Source of the DNA: a virus
Lineage: Duplodnaviria; Heunggongvirae; Uroviricota; Caudoviricetes
Strand: one strand, 5' to 3'
Length of the DNA: 46,663 bases
IMG/VR virus record: IMGVR_UViG_3300012347_000217
Location: 1-46,663 of that record
Part shown: positions 1 to 11,175 of the stretch, piece by piece
Layout: every line of letters starts with the position of its first letter
How positions within the stretch are numbered: position 1 is the stretch's first letter
The notes under the pieces: generated by a model
Databases searched by the model: none
The model's input: the letters and a program-made list of their open reading frames with translations, nothing else
What the model was told of the DNA's origin: nothing
Made by a program: the position numbers and the translations under genes

Positions 1-168
1 CGGTATCGTAGCAGTACCGCTGGTGCTACAGGACGAAGTGGGTTCGAACCCCACAGCCAGGTTCGTTAGTGTGTTTACATATGGTAAAGCGTTCAACCGG
101 TTGCAAACGGAGTCCTGGTGGACAAGTCATCGTAGGTGCTAAAGGGGTTCGATTCCCTGACGCGGATG

Positions 169-294
169 CCATATCAAAGTACGCTAGTATGCTATAGCGA
201 ATCGGGTCGCTCCTGTGGAAGTTATGGCGTATCACTGCCCTGGTTGGGCAAAGCCGGCGACTGCGGTTCAATTCCGTAGCGTACTTTGATATGG
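169..294 (+). ncRNA. tRNA-like RNA closed by a perfect 18-bp stem (CCATAT...ATATGG family)
   Basis: CCATATCAAAGTACGCTA (169-186) is the exact reverse complement of 277-294. T-arm TGCGG-TTCAATT-CCGTA abuts the 3' strand. No canonical anticodon arm. Confidence 0.7.
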
Positions 295-342
295 TAAACA
301 GGAGTAATTAACCTGTCCATATTCGGAAGTCATGACTCCGAA

Positions 343-444
343 GAACTCGTAGTGATGGAAATGGGTAGACATTCCTCCGTTATAGGAGGCGGGAGTTCCG
401 CAAGGCCCCCATGCAGGTTCGATCCCTGCCTACAATGAGTTCCA
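343..444 (+). pseudogene. Degenerate type II (Leu-like) tRNA or tRNA-like RNA
   Basis: Leu-type D loop GGAAATGGGTAGACA, arm CCTCC-GTTATA-GGAGG with a 6-nt loop, long variable arm, T-arm GCAGG-TTCGATC-CCTGC, bulged acceptor GAACTCGTAG/CTAC-AAT-GAGTTC, ends in CCA. Confidence 0.55.
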
Positions 445-560
445 TATAGAAGTATTCTTGGCATAAGTCAAAGCGGGAGAAGAGACCCTAGTGGATGCAT
501 ACGCAAAGGTTTCAGAGCTTGACTCCTCCTAGGCCTGCATTTGAGAGTGCTTCTATATGG
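442..560 (+). ncRNA. Structured RNA closed by a 17-bp stem (CCATAT...ATATGG family)
   Basis: CCATATAGAAGTATTCT (442-458) pairs with AGAGTGCTTCTATATGG (544-560) with 2 G.U pairs. Internal complementarities AGTCAA/TTGACT, CCTAG/CTAGG, ATGCA/TGCAT. Confidence 0.6.
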
Positions 561-633
561 TGCTATAGTTCAGTGGTAGAACACCTCCTTCATACGGAGA
601 CTGTCGGCGGTTCAAGTCCGTCTAGCACTACCA
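559..633 (+). tRNA. trnM: tRNA-Met or Ile2 (CAT)
   Basis: Cloverleaf GGTGCTA/TAGCACT, anticodon loop TTCATAC, T loop TTCAAGT, encoded CCA. Confidence 0.85.
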
Positions 634-797
634 AATATTTTACCGTCCCACTTTAACTCATCCTTGACAAATGGTTTGAGGTCCTTGGTGGGAAATGACA
701 GAGCAAAAGTTTGAACGCACGAATAACTTGCACTTTTAGGAAATGGTCCTTGTGCAACTGCGTATAGAGGAACAACTGCTTCGTCTTCGGTTATCAT
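612..797 (-). CDS. Possible 61-aa antisense protein (MITEDEAVVP...)
   Basis: Internal ATG of the 612..884 ORF. It fills the spacer between two tRNAs and is preceded on the minus strand by CATAAATA. Confidence 0.3.
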   Translation of the reverse strand: MITEDEAVVPLYAVAQGPFPKSASYSCVQTFALSFPTKDLKPFVKDELKWDGKIFGSARRT

Positions 798-808
798 GCA
801 GTATTTAT

Positions 809-883
809 GCCCTAGTAGCTCAGGGGTAGAGCGGCGTCTTGATAAGGCGTAGGTCCGTGGTTCGAAACCACGCTGGGGTACCA
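809..883 (+). tRNA. trnI: tRNA-Ile (GAT)
   Basis: GCCCTAG/CTGGGGT acceptor, loop TTGATAA, TTCGAAA, CCA. Confidence 0.92.
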
Positions 884-887
884 CTTA

Positions 888-895
888 CTAAATAG
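888..895 (+). promoter_or_regulatory. T4-type late-promoter-like ACTAAATA
   Basis: Variant of the T4 late consensus TATAAATA just before the ATG at 900. The same motif precedes the genes at 4843 and 25861. Confidence 0.45.
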
Positions 896-899
896 TTTT

Positions 900-1484
900 A
901 TGGATTCCACATTCGAATATTTTTTTCAAGCAGAGCCATCTAAATCAATGCCCATGTACGCATTGTACGATGTTATGGACAAGCATTTTATGCTGCAATC
1001 AACTGACTACACAGTGTTGCACAAATTAATGATTGCCATGCGCTCTAAGACAAATTTAGAAATGGCAGTGCTTCCTTATAAAGCCGACATGTCTAATGCA
1101 AACATTGAAAAATTCTATATTAAGAATCTACATCCTAAATGGATGGGCGATCTGGTAAACTTTTATAAACAGCCTGATCCCGAAAAGCATCTTGCTAAAT
1201 GGGCAATTGTAGACCCTGAGATGCAAATTGAGTTGACTCAAACACACTTTGATTCATACAAAACTGATTTACAGAAACAATTGTTCTTTTTTTACTATTG
1301 TTTGAGCTTTTTAAAGAAGCACCCATCCGACTTGGTAGAAAAACTAATCACTAACAGTATCTGGTATAGTAAGAACTATAGCGAGGTCGTTGATTGTCTA
1401 CTAAACTCAGTAGCGATACACTCGCAGCAGGATAGGGCAATGTTCCACAAGTTCCTTACACAGACTGGACTATTTTATGAATAA
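900..1484 (+). CDS. Hypothetical protein, coupled to the downstream AsnB-like gene
   Basis: 194-aa ORF; ATGA overlap region with 1477. Confidence 0.75.
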   Translation: MDSTFEYFFQAEPSKSMPMYALYDVMDKHFMLQSTDYTVLHKLMIAMRSKTNLEMAVLPYKADMSNANIEKFYIKNLHPKWMGDLVNFYKQPDPEKHLAKWAIVDPEMQIELTQTHFDSYKTDLQKQLFFFYYCLSFLKKHPSDLVEKLITNSIWYSKNYSEVVDCLLNSVAIHSQQDRAMFHKFLTQTGLFYE

Positions 1485-2679
1485 AATGTTGTTCGTTGAT
1501 CATGTGTTATTAGGAGTAGCTGATACTCAGCTTTATCGTAACGAAATTTACAAAGACTACATGTCCTTGTATCGAAGATTTCCTCCCCCTCCTGGAACCG
1601 AGTTTATGGTCCCGAGGAATATGCCATTGGGGATCAAGAATCCCTGGGGAATAACCGAAAGCAATTTTAAACTTCCTGAATATCGTCAAGTGTCATTTAA
1701 TGATGCAGCTGATTCATTTGGGCAGTCTATTGTTGCGGAAATTGATCAGGGCAAGCAGGTATATATCTGCTGGTCTGGTGGAATTGATAGTACTTGTGCC
1801 GCAGTAAGTGTGCTTAAATTCTTACAGGACAGGCACACAGATCAAGTTACAATAGTAATGTCTGATCGCAGTATACAGGAAAATCCTCAGTTCTATGCAC
1901 AGCATCTGCAGAAATTTAACAGACTAGAATTTAGTCCTTATATGTTTGCAGACATAGATATCAAGAACGCACTGGTGCTTGATGGCGAAGGTGGCGACCA
2001 AATGTTTGGTTCGAGCCTGGCTAATTTTGTGTTCTCGGCGCACCCGGATAAAATCCATGTTCCGTGGCGAACTCAGGTAAATTTTATTACCAAGTTGCTA
2101 CGCAAGCCCTGGGACACTACACAGACATGGAATACATTTTATAACATGGTAGTGGACAGCATTGATTCGTCTGCTCCAGTTGAGACCCTGCAAGACTTTT
2201 TCTGGTGGTTGAACTTTAATTTCAAATTTGATGCAGTAATGACTAGAACGTTACTGTATTACGGAGAAGCAGTACCTGACTGTGATTTTGGGCATTTTGC
2301 TCAGCACTCAAGTCGGCGACTATTTGCAGATAAATTGATGCAGCAGTGGGCTATGTCGGCAGACTCTAACGAAAAGACTCAAGGCGGCAAAAATATCAAA
2401 TTGCCAGCAAAAAAGTATATCTACGAGTTTGATAAAAATGAATACTACTACCGGGAAAAACGCAAAGAGTTAAGTACTCCGATGTTTAATCGCAAATACT
2501 TTGGACTTGACGCAGACTACCAGAGATATAGTCTTGACGACAGGGCTACTCGGCAGAAACTGCGAGAATTATTTTATCCCAATGCAACAGGAAAAATTCC
2601 CTTTGTTGAGGATATAAGTATTCCACACACTGAGCTTATTGCAAATTTTTGGAAAGCGGTCCCGAACACAAAGATGTAA
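1477..2679 (+). CDS. Asparagine-synthase-like PP-loop (adenine nucleotide alpha hydrolase) protein without a glutaminase domain
   Basis: CWSGGIDST PP-loop and LDGEGGDQMFG (compare AsnB SGEGADELFG). Confidence 0.75.
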   Translation: MNKMLFVDHVLLGVADTQLYRNEIYKDYMSLYRRFPPPPGTEFMVPRNMPLGIKNPWGITESNFKLPEYRQVSFNDAADSFGQSIVAEIDQGKQVYICWSGGIDSTCAAVSVLKFLQDRHTDQVTIVMSDRSIQENPQFYAQHLQKFNRLEFSPYMFADIDIKNALVLDGEGGDQMFGSSLANFVFSAHPDKIHVPWRTQVNFITKLLRKPWDTTQTWNTFYNMVVDSIDSSAPVETLQDFFWWLNFNFKFDAVMTRTLLYYGEAVPDCDFGHFAQHSSRRLFADKLMQQWAMSADSNEKTQGGKNIKLPAKKYIYEFDKNEYYYREKRKELSTPMFNRKYFGLDADYQRYSLDDRATRQKLRELFYPNATGKIPFVEDISIPHTELIANFWKAVPNTKM

Positions 2680-2682
2680 TAG

Positions 2683-3216
2683 TTAACCAATTACATCTTT
2701 AAATAGTTCGACTGTTTTGGCCATTGTTATTCTCTTGCCGGATTCTTGCATTAATACAATACTCAAACACCACCGCGGGGTTAGAGGGTTTATGATGTTA
2801 TGAGGTACGCCAACTTGAACTATACTTGGAAACTTAACAGATTGCCGGTGAACTTCGGTAACTTCGGAGTGGTTAAATCCAACATAGCGTGTGCCAATTG
2901 TTGAAGCCGCTGCGGTTTTTACAACACCGGGATTGGCAGAGTACCAACACATGCAGCTTTGGTCGCCGCCCCATATAAAGTTAAGTTTGGTATAGTTGCC
3001 CCCGGCATTGTCAATGTGGATGGGAATTACGCCGCCTGGGCTGGTGTAAAAAAGCTCAGCCAGACCAATTTTTACACCATGCTGCATAAGGAATTGAACT
3101 AACTCAGGATGTAGGTCGCCTAGCGGAATGCGTTGGTGCCATATAGTTTTGTAGGTATTAACATCCTTTATCAGTGGTGTTAACTTTACGTTTAAATCTA
3201 CACAATAATCATTCAT
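2683..3216 (-). CDS. Cupin/Fe(II)-oxygenase-like hypothetical protein
   Basis: IPIHID...VGVPHNI HxD...H pattern in a beta-rich 177-aa ORF. Confidence 0.6.
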   Translation of the reverse strand: MNDYCVDLNVKLTPLIKDVNTYKTIWHQRIPLGDLHPELVQFLMQHGVKIGLAELFYTSPGGVIPIHIDNAGGNYTKLNFIWGGDQSCMCWYSANPGVVKTAAASTIGTRYVGFNHSEVTEVHRQSVKFPSIVQVGVPHNIINPLTPRWCLSIVLMQESGKRITMAKTVELFKDVIG

Positions 3217-3223
3217 AAAGTAG

Positions 3224-3252
3224 TTGACACATAAAGAAATATGCCATACAAT
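3224..3252 (+). promoter_or_regulatory. sigma70 promoter P1 of the tRNA array
   Basis: TTGACA(3224)-17 nt-TACAAT(3247). Confidence 0.85.
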
Positions 3253-3292
3253 AGATACTTAGTTAGAAATTAACTAGGAGCTATAAAAGCAG

Positions 3293-3321
3293 TTGACACA
3301 TAAAGAAATCATTGCTATAAT
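3293..3321 (+). promoter_or_regulatory. sigma70 promoter P2 of the tRNA array
   Basis: TTGACA(3293)-17 nt-TATAAT(3316), perfect consensus. Shares AGTTGACACATAAAGAAAT with P1. Confidence 0.9.
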
Positions 3322-3347
3322 AGCTACATGTTAAGAAATTAACAAAC

Positions 3348-3358
3348 GTTCTTTAAAA
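3348..3358 (+). promoter_or_regulatory. rrn-type boxA antitermination-like element
   Basis: GTTCTTTAAAA after promoter P2 and a small hairpin (TGTTAAGAAATTAACA). Confidence 0.6.
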
Positions 3359-3394
3359 ATTTGTTTTGAATCAAAATAAATTTCTAAATAACTG

Positions 3395-3423
3395 TTGACA
3401 GCAAATGAAATGTTTGCTACAAT
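3395..3423 (+). promoter_or_regulatory. sigma70 promoter P3 of the tRNA array
   Basis: TTGACA(3395)-17 nt-TACAAT(3418) with an AT-rich upstream tract. Confidence 0.85.
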
Positions 3424-3457
3424 AGAAGCTTAGTTAGACATTGTGCTAACTGACAAA

Positions 3458-3468
3458 GTTCTTTAAAA
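3458..3468 (+). promoter_or_regulatory. rrn-type boxA antitermination-like element
   Basis: Second GTTCTTTAAAA, after P3 and hairpin TTAGTTAG...CTAACTGA. Confidence 0.6.
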
Positions 3469-3505
3469 CTGATAACGTATAAGAAGTTCTTATACACATA
3501 CACAC

Positions 3506-3594
3506 AAATGCTTAGGCCAGGCAGATGTAGCGGATTACAGCCCGATAGCTTTCGGGTAGGCAGGTTCAATTCCTGTGAGTGCGTTTAGATATGG
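3506..3594 (+). ncRNA. tRNA-like leader RNA (T-arm, ends in ATATGG)
   Basis: T-arm GCAGG-TTCAATT-CCTGT, hairpin CCCGA/TCGGG, acceptor-like AAATGC/GCGTTT. Confidence 0.45.
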
Positions 3595-3601
3595 TTATTA
3601 T

Positions 3602-3678
3602 GGGTTTGTAGTTTAGCGGCTAAAACATCACGCTTTTAACGTGTAAGACCGTGAGTTCGAATCTCACCAGACCCACCA
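3602..3678 (+). tRNA. trnK: tRNA-Lys (TTT)
   Basis: GGGTTTG/CAGACCC, loop CTTTTAA, TTCGAAT, CCA. Confidence 0.92.
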
Positions 3679-3684
3679 AGTTTT

Positions 3685-3742
3685 AGAATCCATTCAGCAA
3701 TAAAAAAATACTTCGTCTATAGTAAAAAAGCGGATTCTGTTG
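3685..3742 (+). ncRNA. CAGCAA-scaffold RNA copy 1
   Basis: AGAATCC/GGATTCT stem, ATTCAGCAA, A-rich linkers around a small hairpin, tail GTTG. Confidence 0.7.
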
Positions 3743-3749
3743 TTATTAT

Positions 3750-3826
3750 GCCCCCTTACTCCAATTGGTAGAGAGAGCGGTCTTAGAAGCCGTAAAGTCT
3801 CAGTTCGAATCTGAGAGAGGGCACCA
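3750..3826 (+). tRNA. trnL: tRNA-Leu (TAG), short variable loop
   Basis: GCGGT-CTTAGAA-GCCGT, 5-nt variable region, TTCGAAT, A73, CCA. Confidence 0.85.
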
Positions 3827-3875
3827 AATCTCGCCTTGATTGATGGCGTACAATGAGATAAATTATCAATCGACT

Positions 3876-3950
3876 GGTCTTAAAGTGTTCATGGACGCAC
3901 GTAGCACTGTCACTGCTAAAGAAGGGGATCGTTACCCCTTAAGACCGCCA
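3876..3950 (+). tRNA. trnD: tRNA-Asp (GTC)
   Basis: GGTCTTA/TAAGACC, loop CTGTCAC, G73, atypical T loop ATCGTTA. Confidence 0.85.
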
Positions 3951-3957
3951 AGATTTT

Positions 3958-4031
3958 ATCCGGTTAGCTCAAAGGTAGAGCACTGGCTTGATAAGCCATA
4001 GACAGAGGATCGTTACCTCTACCGGATACCA
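3958..4031 (+). tRNA. trnI: tRNA-Ile (GAT), second copy
   Basis: ATCCGGT/ACCGGAT, loop TTGATAA, T loop ATCGTTA, CCA. Confidence 0.85.
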
Positions 4032-4035
4032 GTTT

Positions 4036-4136
4036 AGAATAGGTTCAGCAAAAATTTACACATGCGAATGGTTCGCAATTTTCATTCAAAGAAAACTTTG
4101 TGGGTTCAATTCCCACTGTAAAAAAACTATTCTGCT
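4036..4136 (+). ncRNA. CAGCAA-scaffold RNA copy 2, enclosing a full cloverleaf with anticodon TCA
   Basis: AGAATAG/CTATTCT stem. Inside: TTTACA/TGTAAA, TGCG-AATGGTT-CGCA, TTTTC-ATTCAAA-GAAAA, GTGGG-TTCAATT-CCCAC. No CCA. Confidence 0.75.
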
Positions 4137-4143
4137 ATATAAT

Positions 4144-4229
4144 GGAGATGCCGCCGTAATGGTATGGCAAGGGACTGTAAATCCCCCGCTCTTCGGAGCT
4201 AATAGGTTCGATCCCTATCATCTCCACCA
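4144..4229 (+). tRNA. trnY: tRNA-Tyr (GTA)
   Basis: GGAGATG/CATCTCC, loop CTGTAAA, long variable arm, CCA. Confidence 0.92.
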
Positions 4230-4233
4230 ATTT

Positions 4234-4308
4234 GGGCTGTTAGTGATAATGGTAGCACAGGGCGTTTGCAACGCTTTAGCAGGAGTTCGATTCTCCTACG
4301 GTCCACCA
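4234..4308 (+). tRNA. trnA: tRNA-Ala (TGC)
   Basis: G3.U70 pair, loop TTTGCAA, CCA. Confidence 0.92.
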
Positions 4309-4315
4309 AGTTTTT

Positions 4316-4389
4316 GCCCCATTAGTTAAATGGTAGAACATCGGTTTTGTAATCCGAGGATAGCAGTTCGATTCTGTTATGGGGCACCA
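4316..4389 (+). tRNA. trnT: tRNA-Thr (TGT)
   Basis: GCCCCAT/ATGGGGC, loop TTTGTAA, CCA. Confidence 0.92.
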
Positions 4390-4491
4390 AGTTTAGTAGA
4401 ATGTATGGGTTGACCACAACGCCACGTGCCAAGGTAAGACATTCGAAGTGTAAGTAGCAGGTTTGGTCATGCTTACACACTAATTAGTTAT

Positions 4492-4565
4492 GCGGGATTA
4501 GTTTAATGGTAAAACTACAGATTTCCAATCTGTTGTTGAGAGTTCGATTCTCTCATCCCGCTCCA
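4492..4565 (+). tRNA. trnG: tRNA-Gly (TCC)
   Basis: GCGGGAT/ATCCCGC, loop TTTCCAA, U73, CCA. Confidence 0.92.
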
Positions 4566-4570
4566 GTTAT

Positions 4571-4637
4571 GCGTTGAAGTATGAACTGCACGAAGTACCC
4601 CTTCGTGATGCCTGTAGAAATCAGGCTCGACGCTCCA
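4571..4637 (+). ncRNA. D-armless tRNA-like RNA with a Gly-type acceptor end
   Basis: GCGTTGA/TCGACGC-T-CCA, 11-nt D replacement loop, CACGAAG/CTTCGTG arm, GCCTG-TAGAAAT-CAGGC. Confidence 0.65.
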
Positions 4638-4642
4638 GTTAT

Positions 4643-4716
4643 CTCGGATTAGTTTAGTGGTAAAACTCGTGGTTTGGGACCATGGGTCGGAAGTTCGATT
4701 CTTCCATCCGAGACCA
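4643..4716 (+). tRNA. trnP: tRNA-Pro (TGG)
   Basis: CTCGGAT/ATCCGAG, loop TTTGGGA, CCA. Confidence 0.92.
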
Positions 4717-4721
4717 GTTTT

Positions 4722-4787
4722 AGAATCCATTCAGCAAAACAAAACATTTCAAAACTTTTATCTTTGAAAAGAAAAACGGATTCTGCT
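4722..4787 (+). ncRNA. CAGCAA-scaffold RNA copy 3 with a Lys(TTT)-like anticodon loop
   Basis: AGAATCC/GGATTCT; inner TTTCAAA-a-CTTTTAT-c-TTTGAAA; tail GCT. Confidence 0.7.
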
Positions 4788-4842
4788 ATTTTGAATATTC
4801 ATTTTTACTAAATAAAAGTATAACAACTTCAGTTAATCGAAA

Positions 4843-5178
4843 ATGAATAAATGCAATTATCACCTATGTAACAATGAGACTAAAACAAAGTTCTGTTGTG
4901 TTAAGTGTAAAAATAAATTTCACGTTATCAAACGTAGAAATGTCTTAAAAGAAGAAGCCATCAAATATAAAGGTGGTAAATGCGAAGTCTGTGGATATGA
5001 TAAATGTGGTTCTGCTTTAGAATTTCATCATAAAGATCCTACAGAAAAAGATTTCGGTATCTCACAGGACGGTAATACTAGACCTTGGGAAACAGTGAAA
5101 TCTGAATTAGATAAATGTATCATGTTGTGTGCAAATTGTCATAGAGAAGAACATGAGAGATTGAGAAATATTCCCTAA
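4843..5178 (+). CDS. HNH endonuclease (zinc-binding)
   Basis: CEVCGY...LEFHH...LCANCHREEH; the stop codon overlaps the 5' end of tRNA-Asn. Confidence 0.85.
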   Translation: MNKCNYHLCNNETKTKFCCVKCKNKFHVIKRRNVLKEEAIKYKGGKCEVCGYDKCGSALEFHHKDPTEKDFGISQDGNTRPWETVKSELDKCIMLCANCHREEHERLRNIP

Positions 5179-5246
5179 TAGCTCAGTGGTAGAGCAAAGC
5201 ACTGTTAATGCTTGGGTCGGAGGTTCGAGCCCTCCTTGGGGAGCCA
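5172..5246 (+). tRNA. trnN: tRNA-Asn (GTT)
   Basis: TCCCTAA/TTGGGGA, loop CTGTTAA, G73, CCA. Confidence 0.92.
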
Positions 5247-5251
5247 ATTAT

Positions 5252-5329
5252 TGTGGTAGAGCAAGCATGGTGTAGGCGCTTCGCTGTTAACGAAGAATGA
5301 GCTAGGTTCGATCCCTAGTACCACAGCCA
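5252..5329 (+). tRNA. trnN: tRNA-Asn (GTT), divergent second copy
   Basis: TGTGGTA/TACCACA, loop CTGTTAA, G73, CCA. Confidence 0.88.
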
Positions 5330-5333
5330 GTTA

Positions 5334-5394
5334 AGAATCGGTTCAGCAAACATATAGCTAACTTTGGATGTCTAGCGACAAAAACGATTCTGTT
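5334..5394 (+). ncRNA. CAGCAA-scaffold RNA copy 4
   Basis: AGAATCG/CGATTCT; inner imperfect hairpin around CTTTGGA (Gln TTG-like loop); tail GTT. Confidence 0.68.
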
Positions 5395-5401
5395 ATATAA
5401 T

Positions 5402-5477
5402 GGTTCAGTAGCATAGCGACTAATGCAACACCTTCATACGGTGTCTATCGTGAGTTTGAGTCTCACCTGAACTACCA
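5402..5477 (+). tRNA. trnM: tRNA-Met or Ile2 (CAT)
   Basis: GGTTCAG/CTGAACT, loop TTCATAC, T loop TTTGAGT, CCA. Confidence 0.82.
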
Positions 5478-5483
5478 ATTAAT

Positions 5484-5560
5484 CCGTCTGTAGCACAACT
5501 GAATAATGTCCTGGTCTACGAAGCCATGGGGTGGGGGTTTGAATCCCTCCGGACGGACCA
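5484..5560 (+). tRNA. trnR: tRNA-Arg (ACG)
   Basis: CCGTCTG/CGGACGG, loop CTACGAA, T loop TTTGAAT, CCA. Confidence 0.85.
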
Positions 5561-5577
5561 ACTAATAATCACTTACT

Positions 5578-6195
5578 ATGAATTACATAAAAGAAATATT
5601 TGATCCAGTAAATGAGCAACATGCAAAAGACATTTGTTTATCTCCTGATAGAAATGATCCTAAGAAGTTTCAAAAAGAAACTGATTTTCTGATTAAGTTT
5701 TTACATGACAATGGTTATGCTACACCAGAAAAAGATATTGCTGATTTTGGTTGTGGTGTTGGACGTGTAAGTAAGCAACTGATTGAACAGTTAAAATGTA
5801 AGGTTGTTGGGTTTGATATCTCTAAGAAGATGATACATACAGCAATCAATTATATCGAGAATGATGATTTCGACTTTTACCATTATGGTGTGAGTGTCGA
5901 AAACAAATGCAAAATTAAATTTGATACAGTAATCGCTTCTTTGGTTCTCCAGCATAGCGAACACCCTATATACGATATCAATTTTATCGACAGTATTATG
6001 AAACCTAATGGTGTATTAGTATTAGTCAATGAGAAGGAGCGTTATGTTCCTACTGAGATTGTAGATGGTGCCGTAAAATGGCATGATGATGGTATTGTTA
6101 TAGTAGATGAAGTGTCGAAGGTATTTGACCTAGTCGGTGAATACAACTACTATACAAGACCTGATAAATGTTTAACAGTTTGGAGAAAAAGATGA
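5578..6195 (+). CDS. Class I SAM-dependent methyltransferase
   Basis: IADFGCGVGR motif I, VGFDIS, FDTVIASLVLQH. Confidence 0.88.
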   Translation: MNYIKEIFDPVNEQHAKDICLSPDRNDPKKFQKETDFLIKFLHDNGYATPEKDIADFGCGVGRVSKQLIEQLKCKVVGFDISKKMIHTAINYIENDDFDFYHYGVSVENKCKIKFDTVIASLVLQHSEHPIYDINFIDSIMKPNGVLVLVNEKERYVPTEIVDGAVKWHDDGIVIVDEVSKVFDLVGEYNYYTRPDKCLTVWRKR

Positions 6196-6359
6196 GTGAT
6201 GGTGGAAAAGGTTCTAGTCCTCGACCATTTAGTATTTCACAGCAGGAGTATGACAATCGCTGGGACAATATTTTTAGTCGTGACTTGAAAGATGAGAAAG
6301 AAGATAAAGTGACACGTAACAATGAGGAAACTCAAGAGGTGTTAAATCAGAATAAATGA
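6192..6359 (+). CDS. Small hypothetical phage protein (MSDGGKGSSPRP...)
   Basis: Internal ATG of the 6168 ORF, ATGA-coupled to the methyltransferase stop. Confidence 0.65.
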   Translation: MSDGGKGSSPRPFSISQQEYDNRWDNIFSRDLKDEKEDKVTRNNEETQEVLNQNK

Positions 6360-6434
6360 GTCGGTAGTTCCAATTGGCAGAACGGCGGATTCCAAATCCG
6401 TTAGTTGGGGGTTCGAGTCCCTCCCGGCTCGCCA
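6358..6434 (+). tRNA. trnW: tRNA-Trp (CCA)
   Basis: GAGTCGG/CCGGCTC, loop TTCCAAA, G73, CCA. Confidence 0.92.
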
Positions 6435-6454
6435 TAATTAGAAAGGTGATTGAT

Positions 6455-6943
6455 ATGAGTAAATTCGACATTCAAGAAGTTAAGCAGTTCATTTTGGATC
6501 AAGGTCCAGATACACGTGTTTATCTTGGTGCTGACTCTGAGCGAATCAGAGTAAACGGTGTATGGTATGCCGACTATGCACTTGCTGTCGTTGTTCATAT
6601 CGACGGCCGCCACGGTTGTAAAATCTTCGGATATGTTCACCGTGAAATTGATTATGACCACAAGAAAAGTAAACCTGCTATGCGTCTGATGACAGAAGTA
6701 TACAAGGTTTCAGAATTGTTCCACGAAATGCAAGATGTATTGGAAGACCGTCATGTTGAAGTCCACCTAGACTTGAACAAAAACGAAATTCATGGTTCTT
6801 CATGTGTGGTACAGCAAGCGATTGGCTATATAAAGGGCACATGTAACATGACCCCAATGGTCAAGCCAAATGCACCGGCTGCTTCTTTCTGTGCAGACAG
6901 ATTGAAACGTATTCTTGCAGAACAAGAATTGTTGGCAGCGTAA
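6455..6943 (+). CDS. RNase H-like YkuK/DUF458-family protein
   Basis: Start at MSKFDIQ after AAGGTG; YLGADS, RLMTEV, EVHLD, AASFCADR acidic motifs. The ORF-track start at 6374 lies inside tRNA-Trp. Confidence 0.75.
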   Translation: MSKFDIQEVKQFILDQGPDTRVYLGADSERIRVNGVWYADYALAVVVHIDGRHGCKIFGYVHREIDYDHKKSKPAMRLMTEVYKVSELFHEMQDVLEDRHVEVHLDLNKNEIHGSSCVVQQAIGYIKGTCNMTPMVKPNAPAASFCADRLKRILAEQELLAA

Positions 6944-7013
6944 AGAGTTTGTTCGAACTAGCAGGAGTGCTTCCGTTCTCGTCCTGCGAATATAAAAAAT
7001 ATAACGGAGCCAT

Positions 7014-7087
7014 GCGGGTATGATGTAAAGGTAGCCTGTGACCTTGCCAAGGTTAGTGTGGGAGTTCGATTCTCCCTACCCGCTCCA
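7014..7087 (+). tRNA. trnG: tRNA-Gly (GCC)
   Basis: GCGGGTA/TACCCGC, loop TTGCCAA, U73, CCA. Confidence 0.92.
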
Positions 7088-7107
7088 CATTTTATGAAAG
7101 TTTTAGT

Positions 7108-7350
7108 ATGACGTATATTCCATTGAACGGCAACGTAATCGTTGAACGTGTTGCACCAGTTAAAGTATCTTCTGGTGGTATCATCTTGCAATCATCCGTT
7201 GAACCTGATAAAGCAAAAGTTATTGCTACTGCATCAGATGAAGTTAAGATTGATGACTTGCTATTGATTAATTGGAATAAGTGTGCTAAGATTGGTGAAG
7301 ACACCTTCCGTATTCATATTACGGACTGCATTGCTGTCTTCACAGAATAA
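7108..7350 (+). CDS. groES: GroES-like co-chaperonin
   Basis: PLNGNVIVER...SSGGIILQ...AKVIA pattern, 80 aa. Confidence 0.85.
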   Translation: MTYIPLNGNVIVERVAPVKVSSGGIILQSSVEPDKAKVIATASDEVKIDDLLLINWNKCAKIGEDTFRIHITDCIAVFTE

Positions 7351-7351
7351 T

Positions 7352-7426
7352 GCCTTGTTAACTCAGCGGTAGAGTGTCTCCCTTACAAGGAGAAGGTCGG
7401 CGGTTCGATCCCGTCACAAGGTACCA
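7352..7426 (+). tRNA. trnV: tRNA-Val (TAC)
   Basis: GCCTTGT/ACAAGGT, loop CTTACAA, CCA. Confidence 0.92.
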
Positions 7427-7430
7427 ACAT

Positions 7431-7504
7431 GCTCTTATAGTACAGTGACAGTACATACCCTTGGTACGGGTAGGACCTGAGTTTGATTCTCGGTAAGAGC
7501 ACCA
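7431..7504 (+). tRNA. trnT: tRNA-Thr (GGT)
   Basis: GCTCTTA/TAAGAGC, loop TTGGTAC, T loop TTTGATT, CCA. Confidence 0.88.
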
Positions 7505-7516
7505 AGATTTCTTAGT

Positions 7517-7589
7517 GTTGGCCATCGCCAAGTGGTAAGGCCGAAGGTTGTGATTCTTCTATGCGTGGGTTCGATCCCCACTGGTCAAC
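7517..7589 (+). tRNA. trnH: tRNA-His (GTG), CCA not encoded
   Basis: G-1:C73 extended acceptor GTTGGCCA/TGGTCAAC, loop TTGTGAT; followed by CCT. Confidence 0.85.
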
Positions 7590-7605
7590 CCTAAGAAATT
7601 TTAAT

Positions 7606-7681
7606 GCCTTTGTAGCTCAGGTGGTAGAGCAGTAGACTGAAAATCTATGTGTCGGCGGTTCGACTCCGTCCAAAGGCACCA
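7606..7681 (+). tRNA. trnF: tRNA-Phe (GAA)
   Basis: GCCTTTG/CAAAGGC, loop CTGAAAA, CCA. Confidence 0.93.
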
Positions 7682-7805
7682 TATATAAACTCTCTGAGTG
7701 ACTACACTGGAGTACATCAAGTAAGAGCAAAGTCGACCACGCTCCGAACGTTGCCAGGAAGTAGGGTCACCGTGGATTCAAGTACCGCAGAGAGTTTTTA
7801 TATGG
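7679..7805 (+). ncRNA. Structured RNA closed by an 18-position stem (CCATAT...ATATGG family)
   Basis: 7679-7696 pairs with 7788-7805 with one mismatch; internal GTGAC/GTCAC and CTGG/CCAG helices; degenerate T-arm-like segment. Confidence 0.65.
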
Positions 7806-7878
7806 GCAGTAAACTTTGACGATGAAGTCCGGCCTCTTAAGCCGAGAGAAGACAGTTTGAATCTGTCACCGCCCACCA
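7804..7878 (+). tRNA. trnK: tRNA-Lys (CTT)
   Basis: GGGCAGT/ACCGCCC, loop CTCTTAA, T loop TTTGAAT, CCA. Confidence 0.82.
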
Positions 7879-7883
7879 ATTTT

Positions 7884-8011
7884 GGGAACGTGATGTAATG
7901 GTAGCATAGCATAGCAAAAAGTCAATTCTGTAAAGAATTGTTTCCGCAACACCTATAGCTCTAACTCTGTAAAAGTTCTTGTGCGTGGTTCGAATCCCGC
8001 CGTTCCCACCA
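7884..8011 (+). ncRNA. tRNA-Tyr(GTA)-like RNA with a 53-nt extra arm between the D and anticodon arms
   Basis: GGGAACG/CGTTCCC-A-CCA, D arm, insert 7910-7962, AACT-CTGTAAA-AGTT, T loop TTCGAAT. Confidence 0.65.
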
Positions 8012-8016
8012 ATTTT

Positions 8017-8112
8017 AGGATGACTACAGCAAACAATTTTTAAGGTTCGATTCCTTATTTTGCCACCAAAACTCGGCAGAGTCGCTCATCGGGAGCACCA
8101 AATCATCCTGCT
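8017..8112 (+). ncRNA. CAGCAA-scaffold RNA copy 5: circularly permuted tRNA mimic (YrlA Y-RNA-like)
   Basis: AGGATGA/TCATCCT stem, then T-arm, loop-closed acceptor TTTTGCC-ACCAAAACTC-GGCAGAG, then D-arm GCTC-ATCGG-GAGC. Confidence 0.75.
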
Positions 8113-8119
8113 ATTCAAT

Positions 8120-8196
8120 GCCCTCGTAGCCCAATTGGTAGAGGCAGCAGTTTCAAACACTGTACAGTGTGAGTTCGAATCTCACCGTGGGCACCA
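8120..8196 (+). tRNA. trnL: tRNA-Leu (CAA), short variable loop
   Basis: GCAGT-TTCAAAC-ACTGT, 5-nt variable region, A73, CCA. Confidence 0.82.
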
Positions 8197-8208
8197 TCGG
8201 AGATATAA

Positions 8209-8373
8209 ATGAAATCACCAGTACAACGTGGAGTTCCAGGTAATGTAAAAATGCGTGGAAGAAAAACAAAACTAATGTCTTGCTTATGTTGCGAAATGAT
8301 TAATTTCAAATGGTCTGAACGTTGGAAAGAAGCAAAGAAAGAAATTTCTGGTAACAATACAAAAGAGTATTGA
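8209..8373 (+). CDS. 54-aa basic hypothetical protein (MKSPVQRGVPG...)
   Basis: GGAG ribosome-binding site at about 8199, open frame to TGA at 8371; shorter than any ORF in the track. Confidence 0.55.
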   Translation: MKSPVQRGVPGNVKMRGRKTKLMSCLCCEMINFKWSERWKEAKKEISGNNTKEY

Positions 8374-8398
8374 CATATTACACTTAATTTGATACAAT
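8370..8398 (+). promoter_or_regulatory. sigma70 promoter
   Basis: TTGACA-17 nt-TACAAT, upstream of scaffold copy 6, the oxygenase, scaffold copy 7 and the TROVE-like gene. Confidence 0.85.
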
Positions 8399-8426
8399 TG
8401 CGTCATCGTGATTGTTAAAGAGTTTT

Positions 8427-8612
8427 AGAATAGGTTCAGCAAAACATGTTTAACGGGTAGCAATACCCGCTACGAATCGCTGATATCTTTTTCCAATAGC
8501 TGGAGCCTGTATGGGCTTTGAAGGTTATTCGAATGCCTAACGGCAAGGATATCAGATAAGTGAGTTTCGATTTCTCACTGACAGAAACAAAAAGAAGAAA
8601 ACTATTCTGCTG
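8427..8612 (+). ncRNA. CAGCAA-scaffold RNA copy 6 with a large multi-hairpin cargo
   Basis: AGAATAG/CTATTCT; CGGGTA-GCAA-TACCCG, CTGATATC/GATATCAG multibranch, T-arm-like GTGAG/CTCAC; tail GCTG. Confidence 0.7.
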
Positions 8613-8637
8613 ATTGTAGGTTAACTTGAGGAGTTTA

Positions 8638-9228
8638 ATGAATATCATCACTAACAAGACACCATTCGAATATATTGTAATTGATGATATGTATTCGGAA
8701 GATGAACTCAAATTAATTTGGCGTGAAATTGATTTCTTGACACCTAAGATGAAAACACCTGCTCAAACAGGTTCAGCTATTGATGCATCAAACAACAGTT
8801 ACAAAAAGAATGCTAATGGATTATTTTTGGATGCTGTATATTCGGATCGTAGTGTGTCAGATTTACTGACATTGAACCGAAAATTGTTTGATGAAGAAAT
8901 TATCAATGAAGGTAAGAAATTACATCCAATTTTTGGATTCATGGATTTTTGTAACAGTGATACGACATTGTTAAATCATTATACGAATGGTGGCTATTAT
9001 GCACCACATAGAGATGTAGCAGTGTTATCTTCGGTAACATTCTTTATTGATGATGTGGGATTTACTGGAGGCCAATTCGAATTTACTGATTATAATGTTC
9101 AGATTGAACAGAAGAATAATAGAACTGTACTTTTTCCAAGTACCGTGAGACACTCTGTAACACAAGTTCAGGTCCCACATAATGGAAAAGGTCGCTATTC
9201 GATGGCACAATTTTTGATGATGAAATAA
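8638..9228 (+). CDS. 2OG-Fe(II) oxygenase (prolyl-hydroxylase-like)
   Basis: HRD...H...RYS motifs; GAGGAG ribosome-binding site before ATG 8638. Confidence 0.85.
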   Translation: MNIITNKTPFEYIVIDDMYSEDELKLIWREIDFLTPKMKTPAQTGSAIDASNNSYKKNANGLFLDAVYSDRSVSDLLTLNRKLFDEEIINEGKKLHPIFGFMDFCNSDTTLLNHYTNGGYYAPHRDVAVLSSVTFFIDDVGFTGGQFEFTDYNVQIEQKNNRTVLFPSTVRHSVTQVQVPHNGKGRYSMAQFLMMK

Positions 9229-9255
9229 AAGAATATAACTATTCTGTGGATTTTT

Positions 9256-9319
9256 AGGTTAAGTTCAGCAAATAAAAAGCATTCAACTTGTAATTGAAAA
9301 CGCAAAAATTAACCTGTTG
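9256..9319 (+). ncRNA. CAGCAA-scaffold RNA copy 7 with a Thr(TGT) anticodon stem-loop, in the leader of the TROVE-like gene
   Basis: AGGTTAA/TTAACCT; inner TTCAA-CTTGTAA-TTGAA; tail GTTG; AAGGAG follows at 9326. Confidence 0.72.
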
Positions 9320-9337
9320 TTTTAAAAGGAGTATATT

Positions 9338-10768
9338 ATGACAACATTTGTAGAAGCCGTGAAGAACCAAGAAGCCCGTACCACTAACGGTATGAAGGCA
9401 CGTAAGTCGACCGCTAACGCTGTGGTTGATTTGTATTACAATGCGGGTGCATCCCGTGGTAAAAACATTCTGCCAGCATTTACTGCTGCTTATGTTGAAA
9501 ACAAAGAGTTGGCACTCCGTGTTGCCGCATGGCTACGTGACGCACGTGGTGGTGCTGGTGAACGCAAGTTGTTCCGTGATATTCTAGTACACCTAGAAAA
9601 TACCGATCCAGATGCCGCTTTGGCATTGCTGGCAAAAGTACCTGAACTTGGCCGTTGGGACGATATCTTCGTCTTCAAGACCAAGTTTATGAAAGATGCT
9701 GCATACACACTATTGGGTGACGCTCTGCGTGAACGCAATGGTTTGGCAGCTAAGTGGACTCCTCGCCAAGGTCCAGTTGCGGCAGAAATCCGTACATTCT
9801 TCGGAATGTCACCAAAGTTCTACCGTAAGTCTTTGGTCAATATGACCAATGTTGTTGAAACACAAATGTGTGCGAAGGATTGGAACTCAATCAACTTCTC
9901 TCACGTTCCATCTGTTGCAGCAGCACGTTACAAGAAGGCATTTAACCGTAACACAACAGCATACGCAACATATGTTGCAGCACTTGTAAAAGGTGATGTT
10001 GCTGGTGTTAAAGTGAATGCTGGCGCAGTTTACCCATATGATGTATTGAAGGGTCGTATCGGCTCTTACCGTACATCATACGATAAGACTGAAATGGACT
10101 TGATCCAAAAGCAATGGGAAGCACTACCAAACTTCGTTGGTGATGCAAGCATCCTACCATTGGTTGACACCTCTGGTTCTATGACTTGCCCAGCAGGTGG
10201 TTACCAATCCAAGTCAGGCTTGTCCTGCATGGAAGTTGCAGTCTCATTGGGATTGTACTTGGCTGATAAGAACAAGGGTGCGTTCAAGGACACATTCTTG
10301 ACCTTCTCATCTAAGCCTCGTCTGTTGCACTTGAAGGGCAATATCAACGAGAAGATTGCTCAAATGTGTACCGGTGAAGTTGCTAATACCAACCTCAACG
10401 CCGCATTGGATAAGATTCTTGAAGTGGCAGTACAGCACAAAGTAGCTCAAGCAGATATGCCAGCTATGTTGTTGATCCTGTCAGATATGCAATTTGATGG
10501 TGCTGTTGGTGGTCGTGATGACTCTGCAATGGAAATGATTGCACGTAAGTACAATGCAGCGGGTTACACCGTTCCAAAGGTGACTTACTGGAACTTGAAC
10601 GCTGCTTATGGCAACGCTCCAGTGAAGTTTGACACACATGGTACTGCATTGGTGTCTGGGTTCTCGCCAGCCGTGGTTAAGCCATTGCTTGCTGCTGACC
10701 TAGAAGTCTTCACACCAGAATCTGTGATGATGAAAACCATCATGGATGACCGTTACAAAGTCTTGTAA
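9338..10768 (+). CDS. TROVE/DUF2828-like helical domain plus vWA domain (Ro60-like RNA-binding protein candidate)
   Basis: Helical N-terminus with RDARGGAGER and GRWDD; C-terminal vWA MIDAS LVDTSGSM and ILSDMQFD; 476 aa; strong ribosome-binding site. Confidence 0.7.
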   Translation: MTTFVEAVKNQEARTTNGMKARKSTANAVVDLYYNAGASRGKNILPAFTAAYVENKELALRVAAWLRDARGGAGERKLFRDILVHLENTDPDAALALLAKVPELGRWDDIFVFKTKFMKDAAYTLLGDALRERNGLAAKWTPRQGPVAAEIRTFFGMSPKFYRKSLVNMTNVVETQMCAKDWNSINFSHVPSVAAARYKKAFNRNTTAYATYVAALVKGDVAGVKVNAGAVYPYDVLKGRIGSYRTSYDKTEMDLIQKQWEALPNFVGDASILPLVDTSGSMTCPAGGYQSKSGLSCMEVAVSLGLYLADKNKGAFKDTFLTFSSKPRLLHLKGNINEKIAQMCTGEVANTNLNAALDKILEVAVQHKVAQADMPAMLLILSDMQFDGAVGGRDDSAMEMIARKYNAAGYTVPKVTYWNLNAAYGNAPVKFDTHGTALVSGFSPAVVKPLLAADLEVFTPESVMMKTIMDDRYKVL

Positions 10769-10773
10769 CGCCT

Positions 10774-10800
10774 ATGAGGATTCGAAAGAGTCCTCATTTT
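10774..10800 (+). terminator. Intrinsic terminator-like hairpin
   Basis: ATGAGGATTC-GAAA-GAGTCCTCAT-TTT just after the stop codon. Confidence 0.65.
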
Positions 10801-10920: not shown

Positions 10921-10922
10921 AT

Positions 10923-11006: not shown

Positions 11007-11012
11007 GATGAT

Positions 11013-11087: not shown

Positions 11088-11100
11088 TATAAATAATTAT

Positions 11101-11174: not shown

Positions 11175-11175
11175 A

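What the first reader, a model, noticed from the sequence alone, without database searches (positions are those of the whole stretch)
4036..4136. Complete cloverleaf with an opal (UCA) anticodon trapped inside the scaffold
4055-4122 folds as a tRNA: 6-bp acceptor, 4-bp D stem, TTTTC-ATTCAAA-GAAAA and a canonical T-arm. It has no CCA and its ends run into the scaffold. It has none of the long extra arm of tRNA-Sec. TGA serves as a normal stop in this window (for example ATGA couplings), so genome recoding is not indicated. It could be a decoy, a conditional opal suppressor after trimming and CCA addition, or a Trp-like variant.
Basis: partly seen in the sequence, partly recalled or inferred. 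Interest (0 to 1): 0.72.

Follow-up and report, generated by a model that had tools for sequence, protein, structure and literature searches.

The report
tRNA mimic in phage handle RNA
The UCA "tRNA" is a real cloverleaf, but it is most likely a non-decoding tRNA look-alike carried inside one of this phage's Ro60/Y-RNA-like small RNAs, because its anticodon differs among close relatives, so it is probably not a stop-codon suppressor.

Summary
Bases 4054-4124 score 39.6 bits on Rfam tRNA (threshold 29). They fold as a cloverleaf with a UCA anticodon, enclosed by an 8-bp outer stem (4035-4042 with 4127-4134).

The opal-suppressor reading does not hold.
- The outer stem plus CAGCAA is a "handle" repeated seven times in this T4-like phage's tRNA array. 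It is present in all 46 related contigs fetched, with heavy compensatory change.
- Handles carry anticodon-arm hairpins, permuted YrlA-like tRNA domains, larger RNAs or, rarely, a whole normal-order cloverleaf as here.
- Among 23 distinct cloverleaf-bearing copies, all four helices covary. The anticodon is UCU in 14, UUU in 4, and UGA, UAU, GAA, CAU and UCA (this window only) in one each.
- Near-identical orthologues differ mainly in the anticodon arm.
- The acceptor is 4-6 bp with uncompensated mismatches, and none has CCA. About 30 of 31 true tRNAs here encode CCA.
- TGA ends 35 of 150 long ORFs, so there is no recoding.

A gene 5 kb downstream (9338-10768, DUF2828+vWA) is predicted to fold like Ro60.

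Best reading: the tRNA-mimic cargo of an undescribed Y-RNA-like family. This scan has already noted that family in at least 95 other genomes, and I found no paper on it.

The parts
4032..4143 (+). Whole inter-tRNA unit (112 nt) between tRNA-Ile(GAU) (ends with CCA at 4031) and tRNA-Tyr (starts 4144). This is the predicted small RNA released by normal tRNA end-processing of its neighbours.
   Evidence: the release by processing is inferred
4035..4042 (+). 5' strand of the handle's closing stem (UAGAAUAG)
   Evidence: Pairs with 4127-4134. The stem covaries across 23 homologues and across 193 handle copies.
4046..4051 (+). Invariant handle motif CAGCAA, followed by an A-rich linker (4052-4054)
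   Evidence: Conserved in all handle copies. It matches the CUUACAGCAA motif of Rfam RF01414 in the empty copies.
4054..4124 (+). tRNA-like cloverleaf: 6-bp acceptor-like stem plus an A:A mismatch, C8, a 4-bp D stem, a 5-bp anticodon stem, loop AUUCAAA (UCA at 4086-4088), a 4-nt variable loop and a canonical T arm. No CCA.
4127..4134 (+). 3' strand of the handle's closing stem (CUAUUCUG), preceded by an A-rich linker (4123-4126)
3685..3738 (+). Sister handle RNA, short cargo
   Evidence: RF01414 32.3 bits
4722..4784 (+). Sister handle RNA, short hairpin cargo
   Evidence: RF01414 32.9 bits
5334..5391 (+). Sister handle RNA, short hairpin cargo
8017..8109 (+). Sister handle RNA with a permuted (T arm, closed acceptor hairpin, D arm) YrlA-like cargo
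8427..8608 (+). Sister handle RNA with a 168-nt structured cargo of unknown kind
9256..9315 (+). Sister handle RNA directly upstream of the Ro60-like gene
9338..10768 (+). Ro60-like protein gene (DUF2828 + DUF7788/vWA with a DxSxS MIDAS motif); presumed protein partner of the handle
   Evidence: Pfam. For the AlphaFold model (pLDDT 73.9), the top 11 Foldseek PDB hits are all Ro60, over the full length, E 4e-8 to 6e-5.
3224..3423 (+). Three tandem consensus sigma-70 promoters that probably drive the tRNA/handle-RNA array starting at 3602
   Evidence: (family D7)

Best explanation
The element is the cargo domain of a small non-coding RNA, not a decoding tRNA. The RNA (about 4032-4143) is transcribed with the phage's early tRNA array. 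It is probably set free when its neighbour tRNAs are processed.

Its two ends form a conserved 'handle': an 8-bp stem, then NUUCAGCAA on the 5' side and an A-run on the 3' side. The handle is most likely the docking site for the phage's Ro60-like ring protein (9338-10768), in the way the terminal helix of a Y RNA docks on Ro60.

The handle presents a complete L-shaped tRNA look-alike. The D arm, T arm and anticodon arm are maintained by selection. The acceptor end is short, unpaired at the top, lacks CCA and runs into the handle, so the RNA cannot be charged.

The anticodon arm is the fastest-changing part of the molecule. UCA is one state, a single base away from the commonest state, UCU. So the triplet is either unconstrained or under diversifying selection.

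Shown here: the fold, the family, the covariation, the anticodon variability, the Ro60-like fold of the neighbouring protein, and the co-occurrence of handle and gene.

Inferred: binding of the handle by that protein, release by tRNA processing, and the purpose of the mimic (tethering or titrating a tRNA-recognising factor).
For: 1. The cloverleaf is real.
2. The handle occurs seven times in this array and 193 times in 46 related contigs. The stem sequence changes but always pairs.
3. There are 23 distinct copies with the same normal-order cloverleaf cargo. 98% of cells are paired versus 78.5% in shuffles, 15 of 22 pairs have double changes, there are 83 compensatory cells versus 19.3, and slid controls give 35-47%.
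4. Anticodons are UCU 14, UUU 4, and UGA, UAU, GAA, CAU and UCA once each, while U33, A37 and A38 are invariant.
5. In the 11-member subfamily closest to the window, 7 of 17 anticodon-arm sites vary, with compensation in the stem. This compares with 1 of 15 in the D arm and 0 of 17 in the T arm.
6. The acceptor is 4-6 bp with uncompensated mismatches, and none has CCA. About 30 of 31 array tRNAs encode CCA, and the phage has no CCA-adding enzyme.
7. Other handles carry anticodon-arm-like hairpins. Of 60 distinct short cargoes, 50 have a stem of at least 4 bp and a 7-nt loop with consensus C-U-NNN-A-A. Others carry YrlA-like permuted tRNA domains.
8. The neighbouring protein is predicted to fold like Ro60.
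9. Handles lie directly upstream of that gene in the relatives. They also lie beside it in the cultured phages Cronobacter S13, Synechococcus BUCT-ZZ01 and Vibrio nt-1. All 3 long contigs found through the RNA alone carry the gene.
10. Canonical tRNA-Arg(UCU) genes with GC-rich 7-bp acceptors and CCA coexist with these copies.
Against: - No expression, processing or binding data exist for any member.
- The window's copy has one of the better acceptor stems in the family (6 bp). M. smegmatis YrlA shows that a Y RNA's tRNA-like domain can be cut by RNase P and receive CCA (PMC4201824), so processing into a tRNA-sized species is not excluded.
- The same array holds a canonical ochre-suppressor-type tRNA(UUA), so suppressor tRNAs do occur in this phage group.
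- The handle lacks the GNCGAA motif of known bacterial Ro60 ligands, and no Rfam Y-RNA model matches it.
- This copy lies 5.2 kb from the Ro60-like gene.
- The D-arm and T-arm invariance in the close subfamily is partly due to how those sequences were retrieved. Each arm was the search key in one of the two scans.
Confidence: 0.72

Rival explanations
1. A conditional opal suppressor. RNase P and 3' trimming free the cloverleaf from the handle, the host CCA-adding enzyme completes it, an aminoacyl-tRNA synthetase charges it, and it reads UGA.
For: - It scores above the Rfam tRNA threshold.
- It has a 6-bp acceptor, an A at the discriminator position, and a 7-nt anticodon loop with U33 and A37.
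- A canonical tRNA(UUA) lies 450 bp upstream, and amber or ochre types occur in relatives.
- M. smegmatis YrlA is cut by RNase P and gains CCA (PMC4201824).
Against: - UCA is found in this phage only. Orthologues with the same body carry UCU, UUU or UGA.
- There is an A1:A72 mismatch and C8 instead of U8.
- The acceptor is not maintained in relatives, and none has CCA.
- The phage has no CCA-adding enzyme, whereas all but one other array tRNA encode CCA.
- TGA ends 23% of long ORFs, and nothing suggests recoding.
- One body with Arg, Lys, Ser and stop anticodons cannot have one consistent synthetase identity (inference).
Confidence: 0.07
2. A decaying tRNA-Arg(UCU) pseudogene that happens to lie between two spacer hairpin arms. 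It has no function of its own, and the hairpin is only an RNA-processing or insulating signal of the tRNA array.
For: - The commonest anticodon is UCU.
- The acceptor is eroded and CCA is lost.
- Five of the seven handles begin right after the CCA of a tRNA.
Against: - The D, anticodon and T helices are kept by compensatory change in 23 distinct sequences from diverged phages.
- U33, A37, A38, G18G19 and the T loop are conserved.
- The bodies are unrelated to the phages' own GC-rich tRNA-Arg(UCU).
- The handle also occurs in closed form inside tRNA-like genes (7882-8014; S13). It also occurs behind its own promoter (8370). A mere spacer signal would not do either.
Confidence: 0.1
3. A working but unorthodox elongator tRNA (ancestrally Arg-UCU). 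Its precursor is held in a hairpin that regulates its maturation, and the anticodon is re-assigned from phage to phage.
For: - ARAGORN at default settings calls the L132 homologue tRNA-Arg(tct).
- That copy has a 7-bp acceptor with one mismatch and U8.
Against: - Most copies have only 3-5 acceptor base pairs.
- There is never a CCA.
- A canonical tRNA-Arg(UCU) coexists in the same arrays.
- Switches to UGA without a long extra arm, and to UCA, make no sense for charging (inference from established synthetase identity rules).
Confidence: 0.05

Closest known systems
Bacterial and phage YrlA Y RNAs bound by Ro60/Rsr (Chen et al. 2014, PMC4201824; Rfam RF02553)
   Same: A small RNA whose paired ends form a protein-docking helix and whose other module mimics tRNA (D arm, T arm, acceptor). 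It is encoded near a Ro60-type ring protein, and several different RNAs occur per genome. Sister copies in this window (8017-8109) have exactly the YrlA order: T arm, closed acceptor, D arm.
   Different: - This element is not permuted. The handle joins at the acceptor end, and a full anticodon arm is present.
- The handle motif is CAGCAA plus an A-run, not GNCGAA.
- No Rfam Y-RNA model matches.
- The protein is DUF2828, with no sequence-level match to TROVE or Ro60 structures.
- Copies are scattered through a tRNA array.
Deinococcus radiodurans Yrn1 (as described in PMC4201824)
   Same: It has the same orientation as the element here: D-like element, then an 'anticodon arm' with a 5-bp stem, then the T arm, all inside the Ro60-binding helix.
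   Different: Yrn1 has a 6-nt loop, an incomplete D arm and no variable loop. Here the cloverleaf is complete enough to pass the Rfam tRNA threshold. No sequence similarity was tested or seen.
Dictyostelid Class I RNAs (Rfam RF01414; PMC7919456)
   Same: A short terminal stem is followed at once by (CUUA)CAGCAA, then an A/U-rich variable middle, an A-run and a 3' UG. The window's empty handles align to the whole model at 32.9 and 32.3 bits.
   Different: - The score is below the gathering score (41.5).
- Class I RNAs come from a eukaryotic host.
- They have no tRNA-like cargo, and their function is also unknown.
- The cloverleaf-bearing copy itself does not match the model.
Phage-encoded suppressor tRNAs (for example the tRNA(UUA) at 3602-3678 of this window)
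   Same: They have an anticodon complementary to a stop codon and lie in a phage tRNA array.
   Different: The true suppressor-type gene here has a 7-bp acceptor, an encoded CCA and 65.6 bits. The UCA element has none of these, and its anticodon is not conserved.
Thermus phage phiLo Ro60 with Yrl1/Yrl2 (PMC12135203; PDB 9L5Y, 9KOP)
   Same: It is the best structural match of the window's protein. It is a phage Ro60 shown to bind phage-encoded Y-like RNAs and to recruit host PNPase.
   Different: Sequence identity is 14-16%. The phiLo RNAs use a CGAA bulge and are not described as carrying tRNA cloverleaves.

Membership tests
Canonical elongator or suppressor tRNA (Rfam RF00005) | Cloverleaf scoring above the family's gathering score | tested here: met
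   39.6 bits versus 29, with a full-length alignment
Canonical elongator or suppressor tRNA (Rfam RF00005) | 7-bp acceptor stem maintained in orthologues | tested here: not met
   6 bp plus A1:A72 here. Relatives have 3-6 bp with uncompensated mismatches.
Canonical elongator or suppressor tRNA (Rfam RF00005) | 3' CCA, either encoded (the rule in this phage) or added | tested here: not met
   CCA is not encoded in any of the 23 homologues. About 30 of 31 array tRNAs encode it. There is no phage CCA-adding enzyme. Addition by the host cannot be tested here.
Canonical elongator or suppressor tRNA (Rfam RF00005) | Anticodon conserved among orthologues | tested here: not met
   UCU 14, UUU 4, and UGA, UAU, GAA, CAU and UCA 1 each. 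Identical bodies carry UCU, UUU, UGA or UCA.
Canonical elongator or suppressor tRNA (Rfam RF00005) | Aminoacylation and decoding | not testable with these tools
   Needs tRNA-seq, acid gels or read-through reporters.
tRNA-Sec | Long extra arm and an extended acceptor/T stack (8+5 or 9+4) | tested here: not met
   4-nt variable loop, 6-bp acceptor, 5-bp T stem
YrlA-type Y RNA (RF02553) | Match to the family model | tested here: not met
   No Y-RNA family is listed at E up to 10 on 4020-4150 or 7990-9340, nor at E up to 0.1 on 1-12000.
YrlA-type Y RNA (RF02553) | Permuted order: T arm, closed acceptor stem-loop, D arm | tested here: not met
   This copy has the normal order D, anticodon arm, T. 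Sister copies such as 8017-8109 do have the permuted order.
YrlA-type Y RNA (RF02553) | Encoded beside a Ro60 orthologue | tested here: inconclusive
   The gene 5.2 kb downstream is predicted to fold like Ro60 but is Pfam DUF2828, not TROVE. Other handle copies abut it.
YrlA-type Y RNA (RF02553) | Bound by Ro60 | not testable with these tools
   Needs RIP or EMSA.
Dictyostelid Class I RNA (RF01414) | Short terminal stem plus the CUUACAGCAA motif, scoring above the gathering score | tested here: inconclusive
   Empty handles score 32.9 and 32.3 bits against a gathering score of 41.5. The cloverleaf-bearing copy has no listed match.

The most novel reading that the evidence does not exclude
The Ro60-like particle of these phages displays a panel of tRNA and anticodon-arm look-alikes. 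Their anticodon triplets are switched under arms-race selection (UCU, UUU, UGA, UCA on one otherwise frozen body). The look-alikes would act as decoys or sensors for host tRNA-targeting defences, such as anticodon nucleases, or for tRNA-modifying enzymes. On this reading the UCA copy is a retargeted decoy, not a translation factor.
Probability: 0.2. Interest if true: 0.85.

Novelty: new variant of a known kind. Interest (0 to 1): 0.6.

Why it matters
It removes a tempting false call: annotation pipelines run at relaxed settings would label this an opal-suppressor or Sec tRNA.

It also adds a distinct architecture to an apparently unpublished family of phage RNAs paired with a Ro60-like protein. 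Here a whole, unpermuted tRNA shape is held by its acceptor end. Its anticodon arm changes while the rest stays fixed.

That pattern gives a concrete, testable handle on what the tRNA-like halves of Y-type RNAs are for, a question still open since they were described in 2014 (PMC4201824). The Ro60-like gene occurs in more than 700 GenBank phage genomes. Three of the cultured phages among them (Cronobacter S13, Vibrio nt-1, Synechococcus BUCT-ZZ01) were checked here and carry handle RNAs beside the gene, so the particle can be studied at the bench.

Tried and rejected
- A scan of viral contigs with the bare 5'-arm pattern gave almost only single chance hits. Relatives were found through the Ro60-like protein instead.
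- DNA similarity to GenBank phages found only generic tRNA and HNH matches.
- phmmer and a 22-sequence profile of the protein found no solved structure by sequence. Only the fold search showed Ro60.
- No Rfam Y_RNA or YrlA match was found.
- ARAGORN at -ps90 found no UCA tRNA on the array strand in any of the 46 relatives.
- Model R1 found no further cloverleaf-type copies in those 46 loci beyond nine. It found none in three cultured phage genomes.
- The phage has neither a CCA-adding enzyme nor RtcB.
- tRNA-Sec and Trp-like readings were rejected. There is no extra arm, and the nearest relatives carry UCU, not CCA.
- I considered a pseudoknot between CAGCA and the conserved 3' UGUUG tail. I set it aside because a 3-nt linker cannot span both helices if the closing stem also forms. 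This is reasoning only and was not tested.
- Literature searches for DUF2828, for YrlA with phage, and for tRNA-mimic decoys gave no description of this family.

Full report
**What is there.** The window is the first 46.6 kb of a complete 177,309-bp virus record. Earlier follow-up notes of this scan call it a T4-like aquatic phage. Its tRNA array wraps around the record's ends.

Between tRNA-Ile(GAU), which ends with CCA at 4031, and a type-II tRNA-Tyr starting at 4144, lies a 112-nt spacer.
- a 6-bp acceptor-like stem (4055-4060/4117-4122)
- a 4-bp D stem
- the anticodon arm UUUUC-AUUCAAA-GAAAA, with UCA at 4086-4088
- a canonical T arm
- no CCA
- an enclosing stem, 4035-4042 with 4127-4134

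Rfam's tRNA model aligns 4054-4124 end to end at 39.6 bits (threshold 29) when the stretch is searched alone. The filters dropped it in the larger scans. ARAGORN finds it only at a relaxed threshold. The minimum-energy fold of 4032-4143 is the outer stem plus the cloverleaf. It departs from a normal tRNA in an A1:A72 mismatch, C8 and the missing CCA.

**The "scaffold".** The flanks are repeated. A 5' arm (UUUUAG-RWUNNN-UWCAGCAA) and a 3' arm (AAAA-NNNAWY-CUGYU) occur seven times on the + strand of the array. The stems differ in sequence (AGAATCC, AGAATAG, AGAATCG, AGGATGA, AGGTTAA) but always pair. Five copies start directly after the CCA of a tRNA.

I fetched 46 related contigs through the neighbouring protein, which is 53-79% identical across them. 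All of them carry the same handle. A simple script picked 193 copies with many further compensated stem variants, and several sit in tandem directly upstream of that protein's gene.

**What the handles carry.** There are three size classes.
- Short copies (50-66 nt). Of 60 distinct short cargoes, 50 hold a hairpin with a stem of at least 4 bp and a 7-nt loop of consensus C-U-NNN-A-A, which is an anticodon-arm shape. The middle triplet differs even between orthologous copies.
- Copies of about 90-120 nt. Most carry a permuted tRNA-like domain: T arm, closed acceptor hairpin, D arm. This is the architecture described for YrlA Y RNAs (PMC4201824). A minority, including this one, carry a normal-order cloverleaf.
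- Long copies, which carry conserved structured RNAs of unknown kind.

The handle also occurs closed by a loop in place of the anticodon arm of a 133-nt CCA-ended tRNA-like gene (7882-8014). The same arrangement occurs in two odd 'tRNA-Ser/tRNA-OTHER' genes of Cronobacter phage S13. This suggests a protein-binding module rather than a processing stem.

**The cloverleaf subfamily.** Pattern scans of the viral and metagenome collections, together with a covariance model (R1), gave 23 distinct handle-plus-cloverleaf sequences. On their alignment:
- 98% of cells pair, against 78.5% after shuffling.
- 15 of 22 pairs show changes on both sides.
- There are 83 compensatory cells, against 19.3 after shuffling.
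- Sliding the partners gives 35-47% paired.

The alignment was fitted to the model, so these counts lean towards the structure. The compensation is nevertheless plain in the raw rows.

The anticodon triplet is UCU in 14, UUU in 4, and UGA, UAU, GAA, CAU and UCA in one each. U33, A37 and A38 never change.

The closest orthologues have the same D arm, T arm and acceptor core as the window. They carry UCU on stem UUUGC/GCAAA or UUUGA/UCAAA, UUU, or UGA on stem UUUCU/AGAAA. In this 11-member subfamily, 7 of 17 anticodon-arm sites vary, against 1 of 15 in the D arm and 0 of 17 in the T arm. Part of that contrast comes from using one arm or the other as the search key. A hand count on the seven distinct sequences retrieved through the T-arm/acceptor pattern alone gives 7 of 17 anticodon-arm sites against 1 of 16 D-arm sites (Fisher p about 0.04).

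Pairs of contigs that are 97-99% identical locally differ at position 35, giving UCU versus UUU, in three separate comparisons. The window's UCA is one substitution (U36 to A) from UCU. It comes with an A32 change and a compensated G30:C40 to U30:A40 change.

Acceptor stems are 3-6 bp with uncompensated mismatches, and none of the 23 has CCA.

**Why it is not a suppressor.**
- About 30 of 31 array tRNAs encode CCA, and this element does not.
- The phage encodes no CCA-adding enzyme.
- Canonical GC-rich tRNA-Arg(UCU) genes coexist with these copies and are unrelated in sequence.
- TGA terminates 35 of 150 long ORFs, and the standard code gives 81% coverage with long ORFs alone, so recoding is not indicated.
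- One RNA body carrying Arg, Lys, Ser, Ile/Met, Phe and stop anticodons cannot have a consistent charging identity. This last point is inferred from established synthetase identity rules.

**The protein partner.** ORF 9338-10768 matches Pfam DUF2828 and DUF7788 and PHROG 850, 'RNA-binding protein'. It has no sequence-level hit in the PDB. An AlphaFold model built from 22 relatives (pLDDT 73.9, pTM 0.72) has Ro60 structures as its top eleven Foldseek hits, over the full length. These include Thermus phage phiLo, D. radiodurans Rsr, and Xenopus and human Ro60 (E 4e-8 to 6e-5, TM 0.36-0.5). vWA/MIDAS domains follow in the ranking.

The gene occurs in 711 GenBank phage records. Handles lie beside it in Cronobacter phage S13, Synechococcus phage BUCT-ZZ01 and Vibrio phage nt-1. 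All three long contigs reached through the RNA alone carry the gene.

The empty handles also align to the whole Rfam model of dictyostelid Class I RNAs, which have a terminal stem, CUUACAGCAA, an A-run and UG. They score 32.9 and 32.3 bits, below the threshold of 41.5.

**How it probably works.** Three consensus sigma-70 promoters at 3224-3423 precede the array, with no convincing terminator before 5600. The element is therefore very likely transcribed with the tRNAs, and 3' maturation of tRNA-Ile and RNase P cleavage at tRNA-Tyr would free it (inferred).

By analogy with Y RNAs, the handle would dock on the Ro60-like ring and the tRNA-shaped cargo would recruit or titrate a tRNA-recognising factor (inferred). 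The pattern of a fixed loop frame with a free or fast-changing triplet fits two possibilities. One is selection for anticodon-loop shape only. The other is diversifying selection, for example as decoys for tRNA-targeting defences. I cannot tell these apart here.

**Known or new.** I found no paper describing DUF2828-associated RNAs or this handle. Published phage Y RNAs belong to TROVE-type Ro60 proteins and use a CGAA motif (PMC4201824, PMC12135203). This scan has already reported the handle/Ro60-like family on this genome and in at least 95 other genomes. What this finding adds is the unpermuted whole-cloverleaf variant and the variability of its anticodon arm.

**Verdict.** The suppressor and Trp-like readings are rejected, and the mimic reading is favoured. 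It is a new variant of a known kind (tRNA-mimicking Y-type RNA).

Noticed in passing
window 3602-3678 (+): A canonical-looking tRNA with the ochre anticodon UUA (65.6 bits, 7-bp acceptor, encoded CCA), although TAA ends 106 of 150 long ORFs. Relatives carry UUA (L130) or amber CUA types (L151, L155, L157, L159). Its role is unexplained.
   Followed up: partly
window 7882-8014 (+): A 133-nt tRNA-like gene (7-bp acceptor, CCA, D and T arms) whose anticodon arm is replaced by a closed form of the handle: A-run, stem CAAUUCU/AGAAUUG capped by a small loop, then UUUCCGCAA. Neither ARAGORN nor Rfam called it. Cronobacter phage S13 has two similar genes annotated tRNA-Ser (121 nt) and tRNA-OTHER (113 nt) at L303 7896-8016 and 8026-8138.
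   Followed up: partly
window 3685-3738, 4722-4784, 5334-5391, 9256-9315, and 60 distinct short copies in L120-L165: Short handle RNAs carry anticodon-arm-like hairpins. The loop consensus is C-U-NNN-A-A. NNN differs between orthologous copies (for example GUU, GUC, GAA, GUA at one syntenic site).
   Followed up: partly
window 8427-8608 (+): A handle RNA with its own promoter (about 8370) and a 168-nt cargo conserved in relatives. Shared blocks are CUGGAGCC..GGCUUUGAAGG and a T-arm-like GUGAGUUUCGAUUUCUCAC. No Rfam match.
   Followed up: no
L120 9399-9617, L121 473-689, L123 5413-5630 and others, directly upstream of the Ro60-like gene: A class of handle RNAs with cargoes of about 200 nt and conserved blocks (GGAGGACCACCGUAAGGUG, CUGGAAAGACAG). 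It is absent from the window itself. Its kind is unknown.
   Followed up: no
window 4723-4785 and 3686-3739: Empty handles align over the full length of Rfam RF01414 (Dictyostelium Class I RNA) at 32.9 and 32.3 bits, sharing the stem, CAGCAA, A-run and UG layout. DUF2828 proteins are also mentioned in papers on eukaryotic genomes, mostly plants.
   Followed up: partly
window 8626-9228 (+), 5578-6195 (+), 6374-6943 (+): Genes interleaved with the RNA array: a 2OG-Fe(II) oxygenase between two handle RNAs just upstream of the Ro60-like gene, a SAM methyltransferase (PHROG 'tRNA methyltransferase') and an RNase H-like PF04308 protein. They may act on RNA.
   Followed up: no
window 4843-5178 (+): A small HNH endonuclease gene inside the tRNA array, abutting tRNA-Asn. 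It has DNA-level matches to HNH genes of many unrelated large phages.
   Followed up: no
window 7804-7878 (+): A weak tRNA (32.5 bits) with anticodon CUU (Lys) and an aberrant D region. ARAGORN missed it.
   Followed up: no
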